From the IMG/VR virus record IMGVR_UViG_2690316028_000008: a DNA stretch of 7,242 nt. One strand, given 5' to 3'. The notes below the pieces were generated by a model. It saw only the letters and a program-made list of their open reading frames with translations. It did no database searches and had not been told where the DNA came from. Position 1 is the stretch's first letter; every line of letters begins with the position of its first letter. The position numbers and the translations under genes are program-made. Origin of the DNA: a virus. Its lineage: Duplodnaviria; Heunggongvirae; Uroviricota; Caudoviricetes. Shown piece by piece: positions 1 through 7,242 of this stretch.

Positions 1-156
1 CCTCTGACTGAGAGTTTACTCACTTAGCCGCGTGTCCACTATTGCTGGGTAAGATCACACATAGTAGCCTTTTAATTTGTATAAGTAGCAGCAGAGCCGA
101 AGTGCAAGGAAAACGTTGTGAGACGATGACGATATACAGAGCAATCATATATAATA

Positions 157-189: not shown

Positions 190-1788
190 TTATAATTTCG
201 CATATATAGCATTAAACCAAGTTAATGTCTCGCCTTTTGCATCACTTGCAGTGAGCATTTGATAACTCATTTTTCCTGTAGCAAATTTATTTATCTTCTT
301 CTTCGCTTTACTTTCATTATAACGTGTTAAAGCAGATACCTCTGTTGATACATCTGTCGTATCATCTATGGTTATGTTTACACCAAACACCGCCTGAATA
401 GCATCAGGATGTAAATAATTTTCCATTTCCCTTTTTTCAGTCATGAATGCTATGGAACCATCATTTCTAGCATTTACTGACTTACATTCTTTTTCATACT
501 GAGGAGGGATGGCAACATCTCTATCATAGATGTGAACCTCAGGTTTATTTAGAATTTTTAAGTCATTATTATTAACCCAATCTTTAAGAGTATGTCCCCC
601 CATTGGAATGAAAACTATACGCGGATCATTTATCATATCAGGAACATTTGGAACACCTTGGTCGAGATAAATTTTACCGATATTCCTTAAAAAGTTTATA
701 TCATTAGGGCCTTCAACGCATACAAGAACAGATGCCCTACTATCAGGGTATACGCCAAGATCATTCGCTATGTTCTTTAGCACATCATCATTACCATTTT
801 TAACCTCTAAACCATCATCGAGTGTTCGGGTTATATGGCGTAGAGATTCTGTAGGTATCTTTTCCACAAGTGCAGGGACGTGGGTGGTAATCAATACTTG
901 GCATTTATCAGCATTTGCTAATTCTTGAAATGCATCAATAAGAAGTCTTTGATTAGATGGGTGTTGAGATGTTTCAGGTTCTTCAATTGCATAAATAACT
1001 CCTTTATCTGGGAATTCTTTTTGCAATCTTTCTGCTTCCGCTTTAAAAAAACTAATCAGGACTAAACGTCTAACACCACTACCACGTTTATTGATAGCTA
1101 TTCCTCTATCATCTTCCAATGTTAGCTTGAAAATATTTTCCCACTTAGGTTCCACTTTAAACTTTGGGATTAACCCGGCAGCAAGATTAGGAGATATATC
1201 ATGTAAATGTTTAATTGTGTTTTCAGCCACTTCAACTGCATGTTCTTTTACGCTTTCTTTAATGGATTCAAGTTGAATGTCAATCTTCTGCAATGCTGTT
1301 TGAACCGCTGACTTCATAGGATCCTGTACTTCTGATTCTTCATCGGTACTCGGCCTGTCTGCGCGGAATAATGCAAAGTGAGGGAGTTTGTCATATATTT
1401 TTTCACAAATAACCTTGCCCTCCTCAGCATTTAATTTAACGAAGATTTCTTTAAGCTTTAAATCTCCAATTTTCCTGTAAATTTCTTGTCTTAAACTAAC
1501 ATTGGACCTTTTATCAGCTCCATCAACACCAATAGATTCGGCAATTACTTTAAGTTCATCATTTTTTTTAGCAAGTAAAGATTTCGCGCCTTTTGCTGAG
1601 GGAGCCATACATTTAGCTTGAACGCTGCTAGATCCCTTACCTTTTGCAAATACTCTATATATTTCTAGCTTTCCATTACTATTTAATAAATATTCTTCTT
1701 TAAGGTTAGTTATAGATGTGGCATCCAAAACTATAGGTATATCAGCTCCTGAAAAGATACATCCAATTGACACGTCTTCATTTTCCAC
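190..1788 (-). CDS. OLD-family ATP-dependent endonuclease (ABC-type ATPase + C-terminal Toprim); frame as given starts at GTG and lacks the Walker A region, which lies upstream of an in-frame TAG
   Basis: ABC ATPase motifs: Walker B-like VIYAIEEPE, H-loop LITTHVP. Toprim motifs: VLVCVEGPND (nt ~709-729) and HIYDRD (nt ~517-525). The same frame continues upstream to ATG at 1977..1975 (MKLEKLIL-TAG-NFRGYHGEHSIDINSLTALVGRNDVGKTT) with Walker A GRNDVGKT at 1893..1867 and a GGAGA Shine-Dalgarno 3 nt before that ATG. No SD precedes the GTG at 1788. Family assignment is from motif recognition, not a search. Confidence 0.75.
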   Translation of the reverse strand: MENEDVSIGCIFSGADIPIVLDATSITNLKEEYLLNSNGKLEIYRVFAKGKGSSSVQAKCMAPSAKGAKSLLAKKNDELKVIAESIGVDGADKRSNVSLRQEIYRKIGDLKLKEIFVKLNAEEGKVICEKIYDKLPHFALFRADRPSTDEESEVQDPMKSAVQTALQKIDIQLESIKESVKEHAVEVAENTIKHLHDISPNLAAGLIPKFKVEPKWENIFKLTLEDDRGIAINKRGSGVRRLVLISFFKAEAERLQKEFPDKGVIYAIEEPETSQHPSNQRLLIDAFQELANADKCQVLITTHVPALVEKIPTESLRHITRTLDDGLEVKNGNDDVLKNIANDLGVYPDSRASVLVCVEGPNDINFLRNIGKIYLDQGVPNVPDMINDPRIVFIPMGGHTLKDWVNNNDLKILNKPEVHIYDRDVAIPPQYEKECKSVNARNDGSIAFMTEKREMENYLHPDAIQAVFGVNITIDDTTDVSTEVSALTRYNESKAKKKINKFATGKMSYQMLTASDAKGETLTWFNAIYAKL

Positions 1789-2317
1789 GCTATCGACACA
1801 TTTATCGGTAGCATCATATTTACATAGTTTATGTTCAAAGAAGACACCAAATGCGTCTAAGATAGTTGTTTTACCAACATCATTACGACCAACTAATGCA
1901 GTTAGTGAGTTAATGTCAATGCTATGTTCTCCATGATAGCCACGAAAGTTCTATAAGATTAGTTTTTCAAGTTTCATAAAAATCTCCATTTTTAAAAATT
2001 AAAATTTTATTTTTTAAAACTTACGCATTCGAAAAAACATTTGATTTTGTTGTATTCGAAGTAACAAGAACAATTTATAAAATTAGTTCAATCGAAGTCT
2101 TGGGTAAGACGCTTTTTCTCTTTAACAAAACGGATAACTACGCATTGGACAATAGATACTTTAGGAAACACGCGGAAAAATTGTAACGTTTTGCTCATTC
2201 TAGACCTGATATTCCTTCAAATTAGCAAGTTCGAGAGATAAGGGGAAATTACGATAGTCTACCAGAATCATTTCACACCTGCTCTAAACAATATGCAGAA
2301 AATAATATATGTATTTA

Positions 2318-2980
2318 TTAGTAAAGTTCTCCAGTTCCCTGATCTACACGTTTATAGAAATCAGAAAAATTACATGGGTCAGATATAACTGAGTTTTTAT
2401 CACTACGAAAATCAAATTCTATTTTTTTTATAAGATCAATGGCTGGTATAGTCGAATTTAAAGGGATTTTTTTATAGTTTCTAATTCTGTGATATTCAAT
2501 TGAGTCTAAGTCTACTTCAATCGCTTTATTACCAAAATAATAAAAATGATCTGAAATCAACACGTTATTAGAGCTAGTATCTCGTTCAAGATTTGTCATG
2601 TTAAATGAACCATCAGCATTGCTATGATGAGAATCTTCTTGTATCCATTCATTGTTTTCATTTTGATGGTAGATATTATCGCCCAGAATTTGTACATGAC
2701 TACCATTTCTAGCAGGCTTTTTGAGAGAGAACCTGGTATCCTCCCAATAACCATTGAAACTAATTTTTTCTGAAACTTTCATTAATAGGATACATTTTTT
2801 TTTAGCTGATTTTAAATTGGCTCCACCAACTCCGAGTATCCAATCACCCACTTTAGCTGACTTTCTAATTCCAGGTTTGCATGTTGCCAAGGTACAACTT
2901 CCATGAAATGGATTAGGTGCAAAACCAAAGTCTCTCGTTATTGCATAAACATAAAGGTGTGAGTTGGGATCAATTAGCAT
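2318..2980 (-). CDS. Hypothetical protein (220 aa), unknown function
   Basis: Uninterrupted 220-codon ORF, same strand as neighbours. ATG start overlaps the stop of the upstream gene (ATGCTAA). SD-like AAGGTGG about 9 nt upstream of the ATG. N-terminal region contains YAITRDFGFAPNPFHGSCTLATCKPG (Cys-x4-Cys); I do not recognise a family. Confidence 0.6.
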   Translation of the reverse strand: MLIDPNSHLYVYAITRDFGFAPNPFHGSCTLATCKPGIRKSAKVGDWILGVGGANLKSAKKKCILLMKVSEKISFNGYWEDTRFSLKKPARNGSHVQILGDNIYHQNENNEWIQEDSHHSNADGSFNMTNLERDTSSNNVLISDHFYYFGNKAIEVDLDSIEYHRIRNYKKIPLNSTIPAIDLIKKIEFDFRSDKNSVISDPCNFSDFYKRVDQGTGELY

Positions 2981-3465
2981 ACGACATTTCCACCTTGAAC
3001 TTTATCACGATCCGTACCATCAGGTTTTTCAAAGGAAGTTTTACCTTCTAGTGCGTTGATAATGGCATCACTTCTCCAGGCCACTATAGAGGTTGCATAC
3101 TTTTCGAGATTCTCTGGTAGTTTTACATCGCCTTTTAACCCATTTTCATATACACCTATGATTGGTTTTCCAAGTTGATGAGCTACTTGAATTTCCCAGT
3201 TTACCCAAGGTCTAGTATGTGTCTCTTTCCCGATAACAACTATAACTTGACTAGCCCACCTCATTTTCATTCTAAGTAAACGTGCAATCGTTCGGTCACT
3301 AAGTTTTTTTTCCTCAACTCGTCGCTGGTTTTCAGGTTTCATTCTAATAGAACTATTGCGTAAATGATAACCTTTTGCTGCAGCTAAACGAGAAACTCCA
3401 TCAACACTCGCGTCGTCTTTATGATGATGGCTAACAAAAACATTTTTCTTAATTTCTTTAACCAT
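2974..3465 (-). CDS. TIR-like domain protein (ThsB-like / DUF1863-type)
   Basis: 163-aa ORF with ATG start and AAGGA SD 7 nt upstream. N-terminal VFVSHHHKDD and central VVIGKETHTRPWVNWEIQVAHQLGKPIIGVYEN match the characteristic pattern of bacterial TIR-like (Thoeris ThsB-type) domains, including the conserved Glu in WVxxEI. Recognised by eye. Confidence 0.7.
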   Translation of the reverse strand: MVKEIKKNVFVSHHHKDDASVDGVSRLAAAKGYHLRNSSIRMKPENQRRVEEKKLSDRTIARLLRMKMRWASQVIVVIGKETHTRPWVNWEIQVAHQLGKPIIGVYENGLKGDVKLPENLEKYATSIVAWRSDAIINALEGKTSFEKPDGTDRDKVQGGNVVC

Positions 3466-3486: not shown

Positions 3487-4518
3487 CTAATTATAAAATA
3501 ATTCTATATTATTGCTTTGATAATGGTATTTTTGTTTAGGCCTTTTATTGTTAAATTTAGTTCGGCATCTTTTATCTATCTCGCATGCACCACTATTTTC
3601 CATGTCCATTAAGGTGTAAACTCTTTCTTCTTTAGGCAGGAAATGGAATATTTCATCCATGTTCCAATTTTCTCTATACTTTTCAGCGATGTTATTTTGG
3701 TTTATAGTGAACCAGAATAAACACTCTTCGCTATTCATTCCATCTCTATTAGAAAAAATCCAATTAATTCCTCTTTCACAACCAGGACCTGAAATAACAA
3801 AGTTCAATTCTGTAAACGGAAAGTTGGGTATGTATGTCAGATCTATGAAAATTTGATATGCTAGAAAATCCCCAATCCCTGAGAATGATTTTAAATGTTC
3901 AAAAACTTCGAACTGATTTCCTGATGATTTTACACCATTAACGATTTTATCTTGGTTATAATAAACAAATTTTATCATTCTAATTACCATATCATTTTCC
4001 GGTATTCCTTCTATATTTTTTAAGTATTTTCCGAAGTTAAACTTCGGACCTCCTAAAATATAGGCTGCACTAAAAAATACGTAGCCTGGTTTTTTTAATG
4101 ATATGTTTATTGTCTTTTCTCTGATCTTTTCATTGATGTCGCGAATAGTCATTTTTGTGAAATCAAAGGGCGCATCAAGTTCATTTAATGTATCGCTTTT
4201 ATTTATTACTCTAAACAAAAATGAATTGAGTATTTTATTTTCATAAGTTAATTTATTGTTGTTTGTTATATTTTTCAATAACCATTTGGTTTCTTTGTCC
4301 CATGTTCTTTTAGTATTTACAAATTTATAGTTTCTCAATATTTTGTCGTCTGTCCAATATGGCGGAAGGTTAAGTATCTCTTTCTTGTAATATATGGATG
4401 TCCTCTCTCGTTGATGATAAAACCATTCCTTGATAACAGCTTCATTCAAGGTAGGTTTAGCGGTTTTAATTTTCATTTCTCTGACATTACAAAAAAGTTG
4501 ATCGTTTTTACTGTTCAC
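3487..4518 (-). CDS. Hypothetical protein (343 aa), unknown function; contains a helix-hairpin-helix-like motif
   Basis: Long uninterrupted ORF co-directional with cluster. Start uncertain: GTG at 4518 overlaps the upstream gene by 11 nt; an alternative ATG at 4476 gives a 329-aa product. Motif FSGIGDFLAYQIFIDL resembles HhH nucleic-acid-binding hairpins. No P-loop. No family recognised with confidence. Confidence 0.6.
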   Translation of the reverse strand: MNSKNDQLFCNVREMKIKTAKPTLNEAVIKEWFYHQRERTSIYYKKEILNLPPYWTDDKILRNYKFVNTKRTWDKETKWLLKNITNNNKLTYENKILNSFLFRVINKSDTLNELDAPFDFTKMTIRDINEKIREKTINISLKKPGYVFFSAAYILGGPKFNFGKYLKNIEGIPENDMVIRMIKFVYYNQDKIVNGVKSSGNQFEVFEHLKSFSGIGDFLAYQIFIDLTYIPNFPFTELNFVISGPGCERGINWIFSNRDGMNSEECLFWFTINQNNIAEKYRENWNMDEIFHFLPKEERVYTLMDMENSGACEIDKRCRTKFNNKRPKQKYHYQSNNIELFYN

Positions 4519-5065
4519 TTAATAATACCTTTTCGAAGAAATGTTTAAAACTATCAATTCCGTTCACATTGTTGTCAAAATGATATTCTGATTTTGTTTT
4601 ATTCTCAGTGACATACTTGTCGATTTCGTATTTTTTATAATTATTATTTTCCCGTTCTATATGTACTATAGTGAACTGATTGTTCTTACACCATGCGAAT
4701 TCTTCATTTGATCTTATGTCAGTAATTATTATATTTTTATTCGTCCCTCCATTTTTTTCTAAAATTTTCAACTCTTCTGATAGCATTCTAATAAATATTT
4801 TTTCTTCAATTTTCCTTAGGCTGTCTAAGCTCAGCCATATATCTCTTGGTGAATGGCTGATAAAGTCGCCGGTAGGTAAGGTTATATTGAGTGGTAACAT
4901 TTTATTTTCAGGTGGGTAATCCTTTTCCATCCAAGGATAAATATAATTGGCCAATTTTTTGAGTTGATCGCTAAATGATAATCTAATAAATCCATAGTTG
5001 GATATCAGATAATTGGCAAGAAAGTCTTTTCCACTACCCGATATGCCCATGAATGCAATTTTCAT
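4508..5065 (-). CDS. P-loop nucleotide kinase, deoxynucleoside-monophosphate-kinase-like
   Basis: 185-aa ORF. N-terminus MKIAFMGISGSGKDFLANYL has a Walker A/P-loop at the extreme N-terminus, as in phage T4-type dNMP kinases (MKLIFLSGVKRSGKD...). ATG (5065..5063) overlaps the TGA stop of the upstream TS-like gene (ATGA), suggesting translational coupling. Confidence 0.7.
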   Translation of the reverse strand: MKIAFMGISGSGKDFLANYLISNYGFIRLSFSDQLKKLANYIYPWMEKDYPPENKMLPLNITLPTGDFISHSPRDIWLSLDSLRKIEEKIFIRMLSEELKILEKNGGTNKNIIITDIRSNEEFAWCKNNQFTIVHIERENNNYKKYEIDKYVTENKTKSEYHFDNNVNGIDSFKHFFEKVLLSEQ

Positions 5066-6147
5066 AGACGGTCCTTATTAGAATTATTAAAATAATTAGA
5101 AGTTACGCTTAGATTGAAATCATTGCTTAACTTAGTTTTTAACACTATTGGTTGATTGAATCTTTCCTGGAAAATATATGATAGAGCTGCTTCTGCATAT
5201 CCCCAAAGTAAATTCCTTTCAGTTTCTACAAAGTGTTTAATAAATATTTTTTTTAGATTTTCGGTTTCCATATCTATTGTGTCTATTTTATGTTCATTTT
5301 CTGTTATTATTCTTTCAAGGAATGAAACTATATCACAGAATAATGATTTTATATTTTGTAACGATGGAGGGAATGATATTTCATCATCGTTTATCAAATC
5401 TGTCATTTGTTCTTCTTTTCTTTCGTATATTTCATTGGCTTGTCCTACTCTATCATCATATATATGAAGATTTGTTACTGATTGATGTAAGTATCCCAGT
5501 TTAATCTCGCTATCAACTTCCCTCTGTAATATTGAAAGTACTATCTCTTGAAGTAAACTAAACTCGAAAAGATTTATATTGCTCACTCCAAATATTAGAT
5601 CGCCGCTTCTTTGAACTATTTTAATGTTTAAATTTTTGTCAGGAGTGATAAAGAAATGAATTAAGTTATTACAAGGAATATCGACACTATGTTCTATGTT
5701 GTATACTTTTATGAGGCTTTCATTCGTATCTCTGTCAGGCATGTATAAGCTAATGACTGCTCTTCTTGTAAATATTCCTTCTTTTTTGAATTGTTGCACG
5801 ACATTCTCAAGTTGCCCGTGAGCGTATAGTCTTTCCCCATAAGCTGCTCGCCAAATGACACCATCATCTGAGTATTTAGGCGCTCTTGGTAAAAAAAAAT
5901 TTAGATATGGTTTAATTCTGTTGTCGCCAGCAAAAACCCATATAGCTTCAGCAAATGTGGAAAATATATTATTTTTTCGACCCGCTAAACTTAAATGCCT
6001 TGATCTAGGGTTTCGTAAGATCATACTAACATCATAAATAGTTATAGCATCCCCATTCCTTGTCGAAATACGAACTCCTTCATTAAGCACTTTTTCTAGG
6101 AGTTTCATTATTACATCGTTAATAGTTTCTCCGTAAATGACGTGCAT
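5062..6147 (-). CDS. Thymidylate synthase superfamily enzyme (ThyA-like; possibly a dNMP C5-methylase or hydroxymethylase) with C-terminal extension
   Basis: Motif-by-motif correspondence with E. coli ThyA: KVLNEG (KVLDEG), EAIWVFAGDN (ELLWFLQGDT), TRRAVISLY (SRRIIVSAW), DIPCNN (APCH, catalytic Cys; codon at 5673..5671), QRSGDLIFGVSNINLFEFSLL ([20 protein letters not shown]), HIY (HLY). About 115 extra C-terminal residues with no TS counterpart. ATG at 6147 preferred over the upstream in-frame TTG at 6153 because SD GAGG lies 8 nt before the ATG. Confidence 0.8.
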   Translation of the reverse strand: MHVIYGETINDVIMKLLEKVLNEGVRISTRNGDAITIYDVSMILRNPRSRHLSLAGRKNNIFSTFAEAIWVFAGDNRIKPYLNFFLPRAPKYSDDGVIWRAAYGERLYAHGQLENVVQQFKKEGIFTRRAVISLYMPDRDTNESLIKVYNIEHSVDIPCNNLIHFFITPDKNLNIKIVQRSGDLIFGVSNINLFEFSLLQEIVLSILQREVDSEIKLGYLHQSVTNLHIYDDRVGQANEIYERKEEQMTDLINDDEISFPPSLQNIKSLFCDIVSFLERIITENEHKIDTIDMETENLKKIFIKHFVETERNLLWGYAEAALSYIFQERFNQPIVLKTKLSNDFNLSVTSNYFNNSNKDRL

Positions 6148-7057
6148 AAACAAAACCTCATGCTATAAAAACATCTTTTTAGTTGATATAGTTTATTGGG
6201 CCTAATCCAGAATTTGGTCCAGCTATGATCTGGACTAACCGGATAGCACGTTTCAATCTCTTGCCTCTAAGAACAGGCTCGAACGTGATAGCCAATTGGC
6301 TTCCCACTTAGCAAGTGAGACCTCGACCCACGCTACCGCCCTCAGTTGCATAGGCACTGCGTTTGTATGAACATTTACAAATGTTACTCATGTTATGGGT
6401 TTGGTCAATCTGGCAATAAGATAATTACGAAACTTTAGACTTATTACTTAAGTGGAGGTGGCGCGAGTCGCTAGCGAGTAAGACTGTCTCTTATATGTAC
6501 CAGAAGCACAACTGACGATGCTCCAAAATCATAGTCACCGCTGCGTAGCAAGCTGTGGCCTCTCGCTACTCCCGGGTGCCCCAGTTACAACGTTGTGGGT
6601 TGCATAAGAAATCTGTCCCGCCGGATTAGAGTGGTGGTGGATTACTGACTGTACTCTGCGTTCAATACAGAGACAGCCCGGAACAGGCAGTAATTGATGC
6701 CGGAACGAGACTATTTAAGAACAAACCGCCCCCGGTTAGCAGGATCGTCTCGGCCGGCAGGAAAGCATGCTAACACCTACATGAAGTCCCTGTCAGTGCA
6801 GGCCCCAGACTCAACACCACCAATCTACTTTTCACCACTGCGAAGTAAGGGGCGCTACGCCCGGTTATGCAGGGGCAGTTTTTCTCCTGTGCGCTTTTCG
6901 TTCCTCTATCGGCTTCCTGTTAATCGTTTCCCAACACAACCCGTCCCGCAAGGGTAAATGGCACGCATGCTGCGCCCTTGCAGGACAGAACGATGTCGGG
7001 AAAGCGAACCGTCAGGCGATACGAAGACGAAAATCACACACTGACGGAGAAAAAACG

Positions 7058-7237
7058 ATGACGATTTCCCTGCATACCACCCGGACAAGCGCCCCTAACA
7101 CCGCAGCGGCGACCAGCGTATCCCCGCTGGACCCGTCAGGCTCCTCAAAAACGAAATTTTCTAAAACCAGAACCGACATTTACCGTAAGCGTCGTCTGAG
7201 TACCGTCTGGTCCCGAATCCAGGATCCTGTAACTTAA
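7058..7237 (+). CDS. Hypothetical small protein (59 aa), Ser/Thr/Pro/Arg-rich
   Basis: ATG at 7058 preceded by GGAGA about 8 nt upstream; ORF runs to TAA at 7235-7237 (MTISLHTTRTSAPNTAAATSVSPLDPSGSSKTKFSKTRTDIYRKRRLSTVWSRIQDPVT). Just below the 60-aa ORF-track cutoff. No family recognised; could be a remnant. Confidence 0.3.
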   Translation: MTISLHTTRTSAPNTAAATSVSPLDPSGSSKTKFSKTRTDIYRKRRLSTVWSRIQDPVT

Positions 7238-7242
7238 GCACC

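What the first reader, a model, noticed from the sequence alone, without database searches (positions are those of the whole stretch)
4508..5065. dNMP-kinase-like P-loop kinase translationally coupled (ATGA overlap) to the TS-like gene
The kinase ATG overlaps the TS-like stop codon, the classic arrangement for stoichiometric co-expression. In phages with modified DNA the hydroxymethylase product is phosphorylated by a dedicated dNMP kinase, so the pairing suggests a two-step pathway to a non-canonical dNDP/dNTP. Alternatively a P-loop kinase in this context could phosphorylate a modified base within DNA.
Basis: partly seen in the sequence, partly recalled or inferred. Interest (0 to 1): 0.55.

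Follow-up and report, generated by a model that had tools for sequence, protein, structure and literature searches.

The report
Phage-type dNMP kinase in TIR operon
The gene is a real T4-gp1-type nucleotide kinase coupled to a dUMP-hydroxymethylase-like gene, but it sits in a conserved bacterial TIR/Nmad2 immune-type operon on an E. coli conjugative element rather than in a phage, which suggests the bacterium itself makes a phage-style modified nucleotide.

Summary
Window 4508-5065 (minus strand) encodes a 185-aa P-loop kinase whose ATG overlaps the TGA of the upstream thymidylate-synthase-like gene (ATGA, 5062-5065).

Evidence that it belongs to the T4 gp1 dNMP-kinase family:
- Pfam DNMK scores above its cut-off.
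- Its closest phage relatives are the 'dnk' genes of ViI-like phages, which sit in the same TS-kinase overlap.
- It matches none of the validated 5-hmdU DNA kinase families.

The TS-like protein carries the residues expected of a dUMP hydroxymethylase.

The context is not a phage. It is the cargo region of an E. coli integrative conjugative element. The five genes TS-kinase-HhH-glycosylase-like (HMUDK_hel)-ThsB-type TIR-Nmad2 keep this order across Enterobacterales, Vibrionaceae and Aeromonas (rearranged in two marine genomes), are under purifying selection, and lie beside TIR/SLOG or ThsA genes. TIR-Nmad2 is the core of a much wider, uncharacterised system with swappable nucleotide cassettes.

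Most likely the kinase converts 5-hm-dUMP to the diphosphate (confidence about 0.5). The main rival is a base-hydroxymethyl kinase that serves the adjacent HMUDK_hel protein (about 0.25). What the whole system produces is unknown.

The parts
5062..6147 (-). Thymidylate-synthase-like gene, predicted dUMP 5-hydroxymethylase (361 aa from the ATG at 6147; the mechanical ORF starts at a TTG at 6153)
   Evidence: Pfam Thymidylat_synt 1.3e-16 and phrog_3676 6.8e-78. Alignment A3 gives Cys159 = EcTS C146, Asp156 = L143 position, Asp183 = D169 and Asn192 = N177. These residues are read with the diagnostic rules in PMC13326640. RefSeq CDS is 1086 nt.
5062..5065 (-). ATGA overlap: kinase start codon over the TS-like stop codon
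   Evidence: Read directly from the sequence. Conserved at 13 of the 14 other bacterial junctions printed and in phages ViI and SJ3.
5072..5076 (-). AAGGA Shine-Dalgarno-like motif for the kinase, inside the 3' end of the TS-like gene
   Evidence: Junction alignment. The role in translation is inferred.
4508..5065 (-). 185-aa P-loop kinase of the T4 gp1 / DNMK family (the finding)
5024..5047 (-). Walker A / P-loop codons, GISGSGKD (residues 7-14)
   Evidence: G7, G10, G12, K13 and D14 are invariant in 35 homologues. Aligns with T4 gp1 GVKRSGKD.
3487..4518 (-). HMUDK_hel / aGPT-Pplase-like helical protein (343 aa, HhH-glycosylase-like fold); its GTG start overlaps the kinase stop by 11 nt
2974..3465 (-). 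ThsB-type TIR protein (163 aa)
   Evidence: Pfam ThsB_TIR 3.8e-20 and PADLOC ThsB1 PDLC00418 4.4e-73. Similar to solved ThsB structures, with Glu retained in NWEIQVA. dN/dS 0.04-0.08.
2318..2980 (-). Nmad2 protein (220 aa); its start overlaps the TIR stop by 7 nt
   Evidence: Pfam PF18753 3.1e-64. 7082 homologues, about 65% identical across proteobacteria. A TIR of this type lies immediately upstream in 76 of 80 metagenome loci.
190..1914 (-). Neighbouring AAA_15 ATPase (AriA/GajA/OLD-like); not a conserved part of the operon
   Evidence: Pfam AAA_15 8.4e-46 and PADLOC AriA 1.6e-37. Absent from the 92.6%-identical variant locus L002 and from most other loci.

Best explanation
The gene encodes a T4-gp1-type deoxynucleoside-monophosphate kinase. 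It is translated in step with the upstream TS-like enzyme. That enzyme is predicted to turn dUMP into 5-hydroxymethyl-dUMP, and the kinase then makes 5-hm-dUDP, which host nucleoside-diphosphate kinase can carry on to the triphosphate. Together with the overlapping downstream HhH-glycosylase-like HMUDK_hel gene, the pair forms a three-gene cassette of phage origin (TS-kinase-HEL). This cassette has been recruited as the nucleotide-processing arm of a bacterial ThsB-type-TIR/Nmad2 operon carried on an integrative conjugative element. Shown here: the gene, the overlap, family and fold membership, the TS diagnostic residues, conservation of the operon and its neighbours. Inferred: the substrate (5-hm-dUMP), the product, and what the cell does with it (incorporation into DNA to be acted on by HEL, or use as a precursor in TIR/SLOG signalling).
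For: Family and fold:
- Pfam DNMK above its cut-off and PHROG 139 over the full length.
- Foldseek hits in BFVD are mostly annotated as dNMP kinases.

Orthology and synteny:
- The best phage relatives are ViI-like 'dnk' genes (blastp 1.6e-21). They lie between the dUMP-hydroxymethylase-like thyA and a dUTPase-like gene, with the same 4-nt overlap.
- Those phages, and viral contigs L035 and L037, also carry separate 5-hmdU DNA kinases (PF18748 or PF18747). The two kinds of kinase therefore coexist.

No similarity to the validated DNA kinases M6 gp54, ViI gp67 or ViI gp243 (E > 0.09).

Charge: the kinase family is acidic (median pI 5.9, like gp1), whereas the DNA kinases have pI 8.3-8.9.

TS-like residues: L143 position is Asp, N177 is kept, D169 is kept. 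This points to hydroxymethylation of dUMP.

Sister operons: the slot next to TS and HEL is filled by thymidylate-kinase-family enzymes (6 of 8 'HEL+TS' loci), and two operons add a dCTP-deaminase-like gene. That amounts to a pre-replicative pyrimidine pathway.

Precedent: a TS homologue plus a gp1-like dNMP kinase puts a non-canonical pyrimidine into E. coli DNA, and the RB69 kinase phosphorylates the modified dNMP in vitro (PMC13326640).

Selection: dN/dS 0.10-0.23.
Against: - No enzyme assay exists for this protein or for ViI 'dnk'.
- The Pfam DNMK match covers only residues 86-155. The direct sequence match to 1DEK is weak (E 0.025).
- The kinase gene overlaps HMUDK_hel. In phages that domain is fused or adjacent to true DNA 5-hmdU kinases (SP10 gp186, M6 gp54-gp55, L037). 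The bacterial operon has no other kinase to supply a 5-phosphomethyl substrate.
- The thymidylate-kinase-like proteins fused to HEL in sister loci lack the LID segment. That could mean a bulky substrate.
- A cell has no obvious use for 5-hm-dUTP, and the link to TIR/Nmad2 is unexplained.
Confidence: 0.5

Rival explanations
1. The kinase is a functional stand-in for a 5-hmdU DNA kinase. It would phosphorylate the 5-hydroxymethyl group of 5-hmdU, in DNA or on the free nucleotide. This creates the phosphate leaving group that the adjacent HMUDK_hel protein, a relative of the 5-PmdU amino-acid transferases, then displaces or otherwise processes.
For: - The kinase stop and HEL start overlap by 11 nt. 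Kinase-HEL adjacency is conserved in bacteria and in viral contigs L011, L033 and L037.
- Wherever a TS-like gene is present, HEL mostly has a P-loop kinase beside it or fused to it. Four different kinase families fill this role: PF18748 in SP10 and M6, PF18747 in L037, thymidylate-kinase-like in six sister loci, and DNMK-like here.
- The experimentally tested partners are DNA 5-hmdU kinases (PMC8989533).
- HEL's closest solved structure is the 5-PmdU glycinyltransferase 8Z2M.
- The operon has no PF18748 or PF18747 kinase.
Against: - No detectable similarity to any validated 5-HMUDK. Pfam gives no PF18748 or PF18747 hit at E <= 0.1.
- ViI-like phages and contigs L035 and L037 carry this kinase type and a true HMUDK, which argues for different jobs.
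- Acidic pI, unlike the basic DNA kinases.
- HEL also occurs with MazG_C, with no TS and no adjacent kinase detected (10 loci; two inspected ORF by ORF). HEL therefore does not always need a hydroxymethyl kinase.
- M6 gp55 (HEL family) was dispensable for the transferase step in vitro.
Confidence: 0.25
2. The kinase acts on some other small molecule in the TIR/SLOG pathway. Candidates are a ribonucleotide, or an NAD/ADP-ribose-derived product of the TIR protein. On this reading the link to the TS-like gene concerns nucleotide-pool control rather than modified DNA.
For: - The operon always contains a ThsB-type TIR and lies beside SLOG/ThsA genes.
- In Pseudoalteromonas L028 the kinase follows TIR-Nmad2 in an operon that has MazG instead of TS.
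Against: - In nearly all loci, and in phages without any TIR, the kinase directly follows the TS-like gene with an overlapping start.
- The closest family and structure are dNMP kinases.
- Most TIR-Nmad2 systems have no such kinase.
Confidence: 0.1
3. The genes are a decaying remnant of phage DNA with no current function.
For: AT-rich block (about 30% GC) beside 48-54% GC backbone. Closest non-bacterial relatives are in phages. A few loci have broken genes: L026 (TIR and Nmad2) and L029 (kinase).
Against: All five ORFs are intact and in the same order across many genera. dN/dS is 0.04-0.23 at dS up to about 1. There are no phage structural or replication genes nearby; the flanks are T4SS/ICE and defence genes.
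Confidence: 0.03

Closest known systems
Bacteriophage T4 gp1 deoxynucleoside monophosphate kinase (PDB 1DEK; Pfam DNMK PF21448)
   Different: Only 16% identity. 185 aa against 241 aa. T4 gene 1 is not adjacent to gene 42. T4 modifies cytosine, whereas the TS-like partner here has the uracil-specifying Asn. The host is a bacterial mobile element, not a phage.
'dnk' of ViI-like phages (Vi01_059c; SJ3 ORF38), in the cluster 5-HMUDK - thyA-like - dnk - dUTPase-like
   Same: Closest phage homologue (about 30-32% identity, E 1.6e-21). Same position directly after the TS-like gene, with a 4-nt overlap.
   Different: The phage copy is followed by a dUTPase-like gene and sits among replication genes. 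The phage has separate DNA 5-hmdU kinases and an aGPT-Pplase2. I found no assay of 'dnk' itself.
5-hmdU DNA kinases (M6 gp54, ViI gp67, SP10 gp186N = PF18748; ViI gp243 = PF18747)
   Same: P-loop kinases found beside or fused to the HMUDK_hel domain and near a dUMP hydroxymethylase.
   Different: No sequence similarity beyond the P-loop. Different Pfam families. They are basic proteins. Their activity on DNA has been shown experimentally, which is not so for this kinase.
RB69 gp48/gp159 and DLP3 gp80/gp169 (TS homologue plus cognate gp1-like dNMP kinase)
   Same: A two-enzyme route from a dNMP to a non-canonical dNDP. Co-expression in E. coli loads the base into cellular DNA.
   Different: Those enzymes make 5-hydroxy-dCMP (N177D and D169N variants). 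The genes are not adjacent and are phage-borne.
Type I Thoeris (ThsB TIR plus ThsA SIR2-SLOG)
   Same: The operon's TIR matches a PADLOC ThsB model at 4.4e-73 and resembles solved ThsB proteins. In Vibrio and Photobacterium a SIR2+STALD ThsA-like gene follows Nmad2 directly.
   Different: The window has no ThsA. Four extra genes (TS, kinase, HEL, Nmad2) are conserved with the TIR, and none is in PADLOC v2. Most TIR-Nmad2 loci carry TIR_2-SLOG2 rather than ThsA.

Membership tests
DNMK / T4 gp1-type dNMP kinase (PF21448) | Profile match above the curated cut-off | tested here: met
   40.6 bits against a cut-off of 27.1, but only residues 86-155 matched. PHROG 139 2.9e-30 over residues 1-177. Most homologues carry precomputed PF21448.
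DNMK / T4 gp1-type dNMP kinase (PF21448) | gp1-like fold | tested here: met
DNMK / T4 gp1-type dNMP kinase (PF21448) | Walker A G-x4-G-K-D and a conserved D-x-R segment | tested here: met
   GISGSGKD and TDIRS. G7, G12, K13, D14, D116 and R118 are invariant.
DNMK / T4 gp1-type dNMP kinase (PF21448) | ATP-dependent phosphorylation of dNMPs (here 5-hm-dUMP) | not testable with these tools
   Needs an enzyme assay.
5-hmdU DNA kinase (PF18748 HMUDK_HMUD1, PF18747 HMUD2) | Sequence membership | tested here: not met
   No Pfam hit at E <= 0.1. blastp E > 0.09 and profile E > 0.5 against M6 gp54, ViI gp67 and ViI gp243.
5-hmdU DNA kinase (PF18748 HMUDK_HMUD1, PF18747 HMUD2) | Adjacent or fused to an HMUDK_hel / aGPT-Pplase-type protein | tested here: met
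   11-nt overlap with the HMUDK_hel gene.
5-hmdU DNA kinase (PF18748 HMUDK_HMUD1, PF18747 HMUD2) | Phosphorylates 5-hmdU within DNA | not testable with these tools
   Needs an assay on 5-hmdU DNA.
Phage thymidine-hypermodification cluster (Lee et al. 2018, 2021) | dUMP hydroxymethylase | tested here: met
   TS-like protein with C146, N177 and D169 equivalents kept and Asp at the L143 position. This is a prediction from residues.
Phage thymidine-hypermodification cluster (Lee et al. 2018, 2021) | 5-HMUDK plus aGPT-Pplase2 (amino-acid:DNA transferase) | tested here: not met
   Neither is present in the window or in the bacterial loci. Only the paralogous HMUDK_hel family is found.
Phage thymidine-hypermodification cluster (Lee et al. 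2018, 2021) | Phage genome with its own DNA polymerase | tested here: not met
   E. coli chromosome; the flanks are ArdC, MobC and VirB genes of an integrative element.
Type I Thoeris | ThsB-type TIR protein | tested here: met
   PADLOC ThsB1 4.4e-73 and Pfam ThsB_TIR. Conserved Glu.
Type I Thoeris | ThsA (SIR2 or other effector with a SLOG domain) in the same locus | tested here: not met
   Absent from the window. Present directly downstream in Vibrio and Photobacterium loci and 3 kb away in Citrobacter. E. coli has a separate SLOG2/TIR cluster upstream.

The most novel reading that the evidence does not exclude
TS-kinase-HEL may be one of several interchangeable nucleotide cassettes plugged into a widespread, experimentally uncharacterised TIR-Nmad2(-SLOG) immune-type system. 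The cassettes observed pair one nucleotide-processing part (TS-like with a dNMP-type kinase, or MazG_C) with one glycosylase-like part: HhH-like HEL with either, UDG-like only with MazG_C. On this reading the bacterium deliberately synthesises a phage-style modified pyrimidine nucleotide (5-hm-dU). It could serve as a poison substrate whose incorporation is then processed by the glycosylase-like partner (abortive infection). Alternatively it could be a precursor for a TIR-made signal read by SLOG effectors.
Probability: 0.3. Interest if true: 0.85.

Novelty: new variant of a known kind. Interest (0 to 1): 0.62.

Why it matters
Taken alone, the kinase is an ordinary member of the gp1 family. 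The setting is what is unusual. Pre-replicative synthesis of hydroxymethyl-pyrimidine nucleotides is known as a phage counter-defence. Here the same enzymes are fixed in a conserved bacterial operon with a Thoeris-type TIR and the very conserved Nmad2 protein, on a conjugative element, next to SLOG/ThsA effectors.

If the pathway is active, E. coli strains carrying it may contain 5-hmdU or a derivative in their DNA or nucleotide pool. TIR/SLOG immunity would then have a branch that uses modified deoxynucleotides. The cassette-swap pattern gives directly testable predictions for a system with thousands of homologues. None of its non-TIR parts appears in PADLOC v2.

The Aravind-group papers that named these domains (Iyer 2013, Burroughs 2015) could not be read here. 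They may already describe these neighbourhoods computationally.

Tried and rejected
- tRNA and Rfam scans of the window found nothing.
- Promoter-like sites are not enriched: 28 found against 27.5 expected.
- A megablast against phages found only a 57-nt end match, so the window is not phage DNA.
- Iyer et al. 2013 and Burroughs et al. 2015 are not held in the library. Full-text searches for Nmad2, Thoeris plus thymidylate synthase, and TIR plus hydroxymethyl plus kinase gave nothing relevant.
- I considered a CMP/dCMP hydroxymethylase, because MilA is the best solved sequence match. I rejected this because the N177-equivalent is Asn, not Asp, in every aligned member.
- I considered that the kinase is a 5-HMUDK, because the next gene is named '5-hmdU DNA kinase, helical domain'. 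Sequence, profile and pI comparisons do not support membership.
- The HEL against aGPT-Pplase2 profile comparison was weak (probability 18%, E 1.4e-3). The fold search was clearer.
- I considered the AAA_15 gene as part of the system. It is absent from the variant locus and from other genera.
- Residue-level comparison with the gp1 dNMP site was not attempted, because I could not verify the functional residues from a source.

Full report
**1. The observation**

All long ORFs in the central part of the window are on the minus strand. The ORF at 4508-5065 encodes 185 aa and begins MKIAFMGISGSGKD. Its ATG (5065-5063) shares bases with the TGA (5064-5062) of the TS-like ORF, giving ATGA. An AAGGA motif lies 6 nt upstream.

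The same AAGGA/AAGG-spacer-ATGA junction is present at 13 of the 14 other bacterial junctions printed, at 62-98% protein identity (Colwellia L029 instead has an adjacent GTG start). An ATGA overlap is also present in phages ViI and SJ3. At its other end, the kinase stop overlaps by 11 nt the GTG start of the next gene. The N-terminus specified by that start is conserved in homologues. The three genes are therefore tightly coupled.

**2. What the kinase is**

- Pfam places it in DNMK (PF21448) above the gathering score, although only the C-terminal half matches. PHROG 139 ('deoxynucleoside monophosphate kinase') matches the full length at 2.9e-30.
- In the viral structure library the hits are mostly annotated as dNMP kinases.

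**3. It is not one of the known DNA 5-hmdU kinases**

The next gene is named '5-hmdU DNA kinase, helical domain' (HMUDK_hel, PF18723, 4.2e-53), so I tested whether the kinase is the missing catalytic half.

- The validated enzymes are M6 gp54, ViI gp67, ViI gp243, phiW-14 gp37 and SP10 gp186 (PMC8989533). Those I scanned (phiW-14 gp37 was not) fall in PF18748 or PF18747.
- The window kinase hits neither family. It shows no significant similarity to the three I compared directly.
- Its closest phage relatives (about 30-32% identity) are the 'dnk' genes of ViI-like phages. These lie in the order 5-HMUDK (gp67) - thyA-like - dnk - dUTPase-like, with the same 4-nt TS/kinase overlap.
- Those phages, and viral contigs L035 and L037, carry this kinase type together with a true HMUDK. 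That argues for distinct roles.
- The kinase family is acidic (median pI 5.9, like gp1), whereas the DNA kinases have pI 8.3-8.9. This is weak evidence, but it points the same way.

**4. The partner enzymes**

- The catalytic Cys and the R-S-x-D motif are invariant.
- The N177 position is Asn in all members, which specifies uracil.
- D169 is kept, so it is not a 5-hydroxy-dCMP synthase.
- The L143 position is Asp, the hydroxymethylase-type change.

These rules are taken from PMC13326640. The prediction is a dUMP 5-hydroxymethylase. MilA, a CMP hydroxymethylase, is the best solved sequence match, but the Asn argues against cytosine.

**5. The context is bacterial, not phage**

- The window is 99.9% identical to 12 complete E. 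coli chromosomes. There it lies between a TIR gene cluster and the ArdC/MobC/VirB genes of a T4SS integrative element.
- A 92.6%-identical variant keeps TS-kinase-HEL-TIR-Nmad2 but not the AAA_15 gene.
- The five-gene order recurs in Atlantibacter, Phytobacter, Erwinia, Citrobacter, Brenneria, Serratia, Xenorhabdus, Buttiauxella, Photobacterium, Vibrio and Aeromonas. Rearranged forms occur in Colwellia and Pseudoalteromonas.
- All five genes are under purifying selection, with dN/dS 0.04-0.23.
- Neighbours are consistently TIR/SLOG genes. A SIR2+STALD ThsA-like gene lies directly downstream in Vibrio and Photobacterium. A convergent cluster of SLOG3, two TIR proteins, Patatin-SLOG2 and a ThsB-type TIR occurs in six genera. 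A SLOG2, TIR_2, TIR and ThsB-type TIR cluster occurs in E. coli, Atlantibacter and Phytobacter.
- PADLOC v2 recognises only the TIRs.

**6. A wider system**

- Nmad2 has 7082 homologues and is about 65% identical across proteobacteria.
- In 80 metagenome loci a 162-aa ThsB-type TIR lies immediately upstream of Nmad2 in 76.
- The accompanying genes fall into cassettes: MazG_C with UDG-like (18 loci), HEL with MazG_C (10), HEL with TS (8), TS-kinase-HEL (4, plus 1 partial), HEL alone (7), and none detected (23, many on short contigs).
- HEL and UDG-like never co-occur, and neither do TS and MazG_C.
- In six of the eight 'HEL+TS' loci a thymidylate-kinase-family protein lies directly upstream of HEL or is fused to it. 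Two operons add a dCTP-deaminase-like gene.
- Caveats: the 80 loci are the best-scoring ones, not a random sample. Some are near-duplicates, and many contigs are short.

**7. Weighing the two readings of the kinase**

The mononucleotide reading is favoured by:
- family and fold membership;
- orthology and synteny with ViI 'dnk';
- coexistence with true HMUDKs in phages;
- the acidic pI;
- the coupling to an enzyme whose product is a dNMP;
- the fact that the equivalent slot in sister operons is filled by another dNMP-kinase family next to a dCTP-deaminase-like gene;
- the experimental precedent that a TS homologue plus a gp1-like kinase loads a modified base into E. coli DNA.

The base-kinase reading is kept alive by:
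- the conserved kinase-HEL overlap;
- the rule that HEL mostly has a kinase beside or fused to it when TS is present;
- the fact that the tested partners are DNA kinases;
- the lack of any other kinase in the operon;
- the missing LID segment in the HEL-fused thymidylate-kinase-like proteins.

I put the dNMP-kinase reading at about 0.5 and the base-kinase reading at about 0.25.

**8. What remains unknown**

What the cell does with the product, and how TIR, Nmad2 and the SLOG proteins connect to it, cannot be settled from sequence. Two ideas fit the cassette pattern. In one, the cell corrupts its own nucleotide pool and a glycosylase-like partner then processes the resulting DNA. In the other, the cassette makes a precursor for a TIR-derived signal. 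Both are inference only.

The computational papers that defined Nmad2, MazG_C and HMUDK_hel could not be read here. Prior description of these neighbourhoods therefore cannot be excluded.

Noticed in passing
window 190-1914 (-): An AAA_15 ATPase (PADLOC AriA 1.6e-37, also GajA/Old models). Its C-terminal part contains VCVEGPND and YDRD motifs that look TOPRIM-like. It is probably a separate PARIS/OLD-type defence gene. It is absent from the variant locus L002.
   Followed up: partly
window 6250-7242; ArdC start at 7058 (+): GC rises from about 30% in the operon to 48-54% here. The stretch 6606-7182 matches the ArdC region found in thousands of E. coli and plasmid records. The operon is therefore AT-rich cargo set against the element's backbone.
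   Followed up: partly
window 1-57: The left end matches an unannotated Salmonella phage record (93%). In some E. coli genomes this edge of the locus abuts IS1 or IS3 elements (H8, H14). It may be an insertion-sequence end or a recombination scar.
   Followed up: no
L049-L052, L059-L132 (metagenome and genome loci): A ThsB-type TIR (162 aa) overlapping Nmad2 is the core of a widespread system. Typical order is TIR-Nmad2-(TIR)-TIR_2+SLOG2-MazG_C-UDG-like, often beside type I R-M or ArdA genes. HEL and UDG-like never co-occur in the sample, and neither do TS and MazG_C.
   Followed up: yes
L075:873-2543, L094:3646-5358; also L074, L083, L098, L130: Thymidylate-kinase-family proteins are fused to, or lie directly upstream of, HMUDK_hel. 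They keep the P-loop, DR[FY] and S-T..Y motifs but lack the LID segment of E. coli Tmk. This probably explains the RefSeq name 'nucleotide kinase domain-containing protein' for HEL.
   Followed up: partly
L086:6650-7495, L098:1367-2173: dCTP-deaminase-like (DCD) genes sit inside sister TS/HEL/TIR/Nmad2 operons. This suggests a built-in dCTP to dUMP supply step.
   Followed up: no
P0124 (593 aa): An HMUDK_hel domain is fused to an N6_N4 DNA methyltransferase domain. This hints that the HEL family acts on DNA.
   Followed up: no
L008-L010 (marine metagenome contigs): A kinase homologue (52% identity) sits alone at the end of a Tn7-like transposon (TnsA, TnsB, TniB, TniQ). An HMUDK_hel gene and a MazG_C gene lie 5 kb away, and no TS-like gene was detected.
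   Followed up: no
window 2318-2980 (-), alignment A7: Nmad2 shows enzyme-like conservation. There are 63 invariant positions in 16 diverse sequences, including RDFGFAPNPF, CTLATCKP and DSHHS. It has no sequence match to any solved structure.
   Followed up: partly
L011 (metagenome phage contig): In a phage contig, kinase-HEL-dUTPase_2 lies downstream of a TS-like gene (50% identical to the window's), a TAGT-family gene, an NTP-transferase and a T4 endonuclease IV-like gene. This may be an unstudied pyrimidine hypermodification cluster.
   Followed up: no
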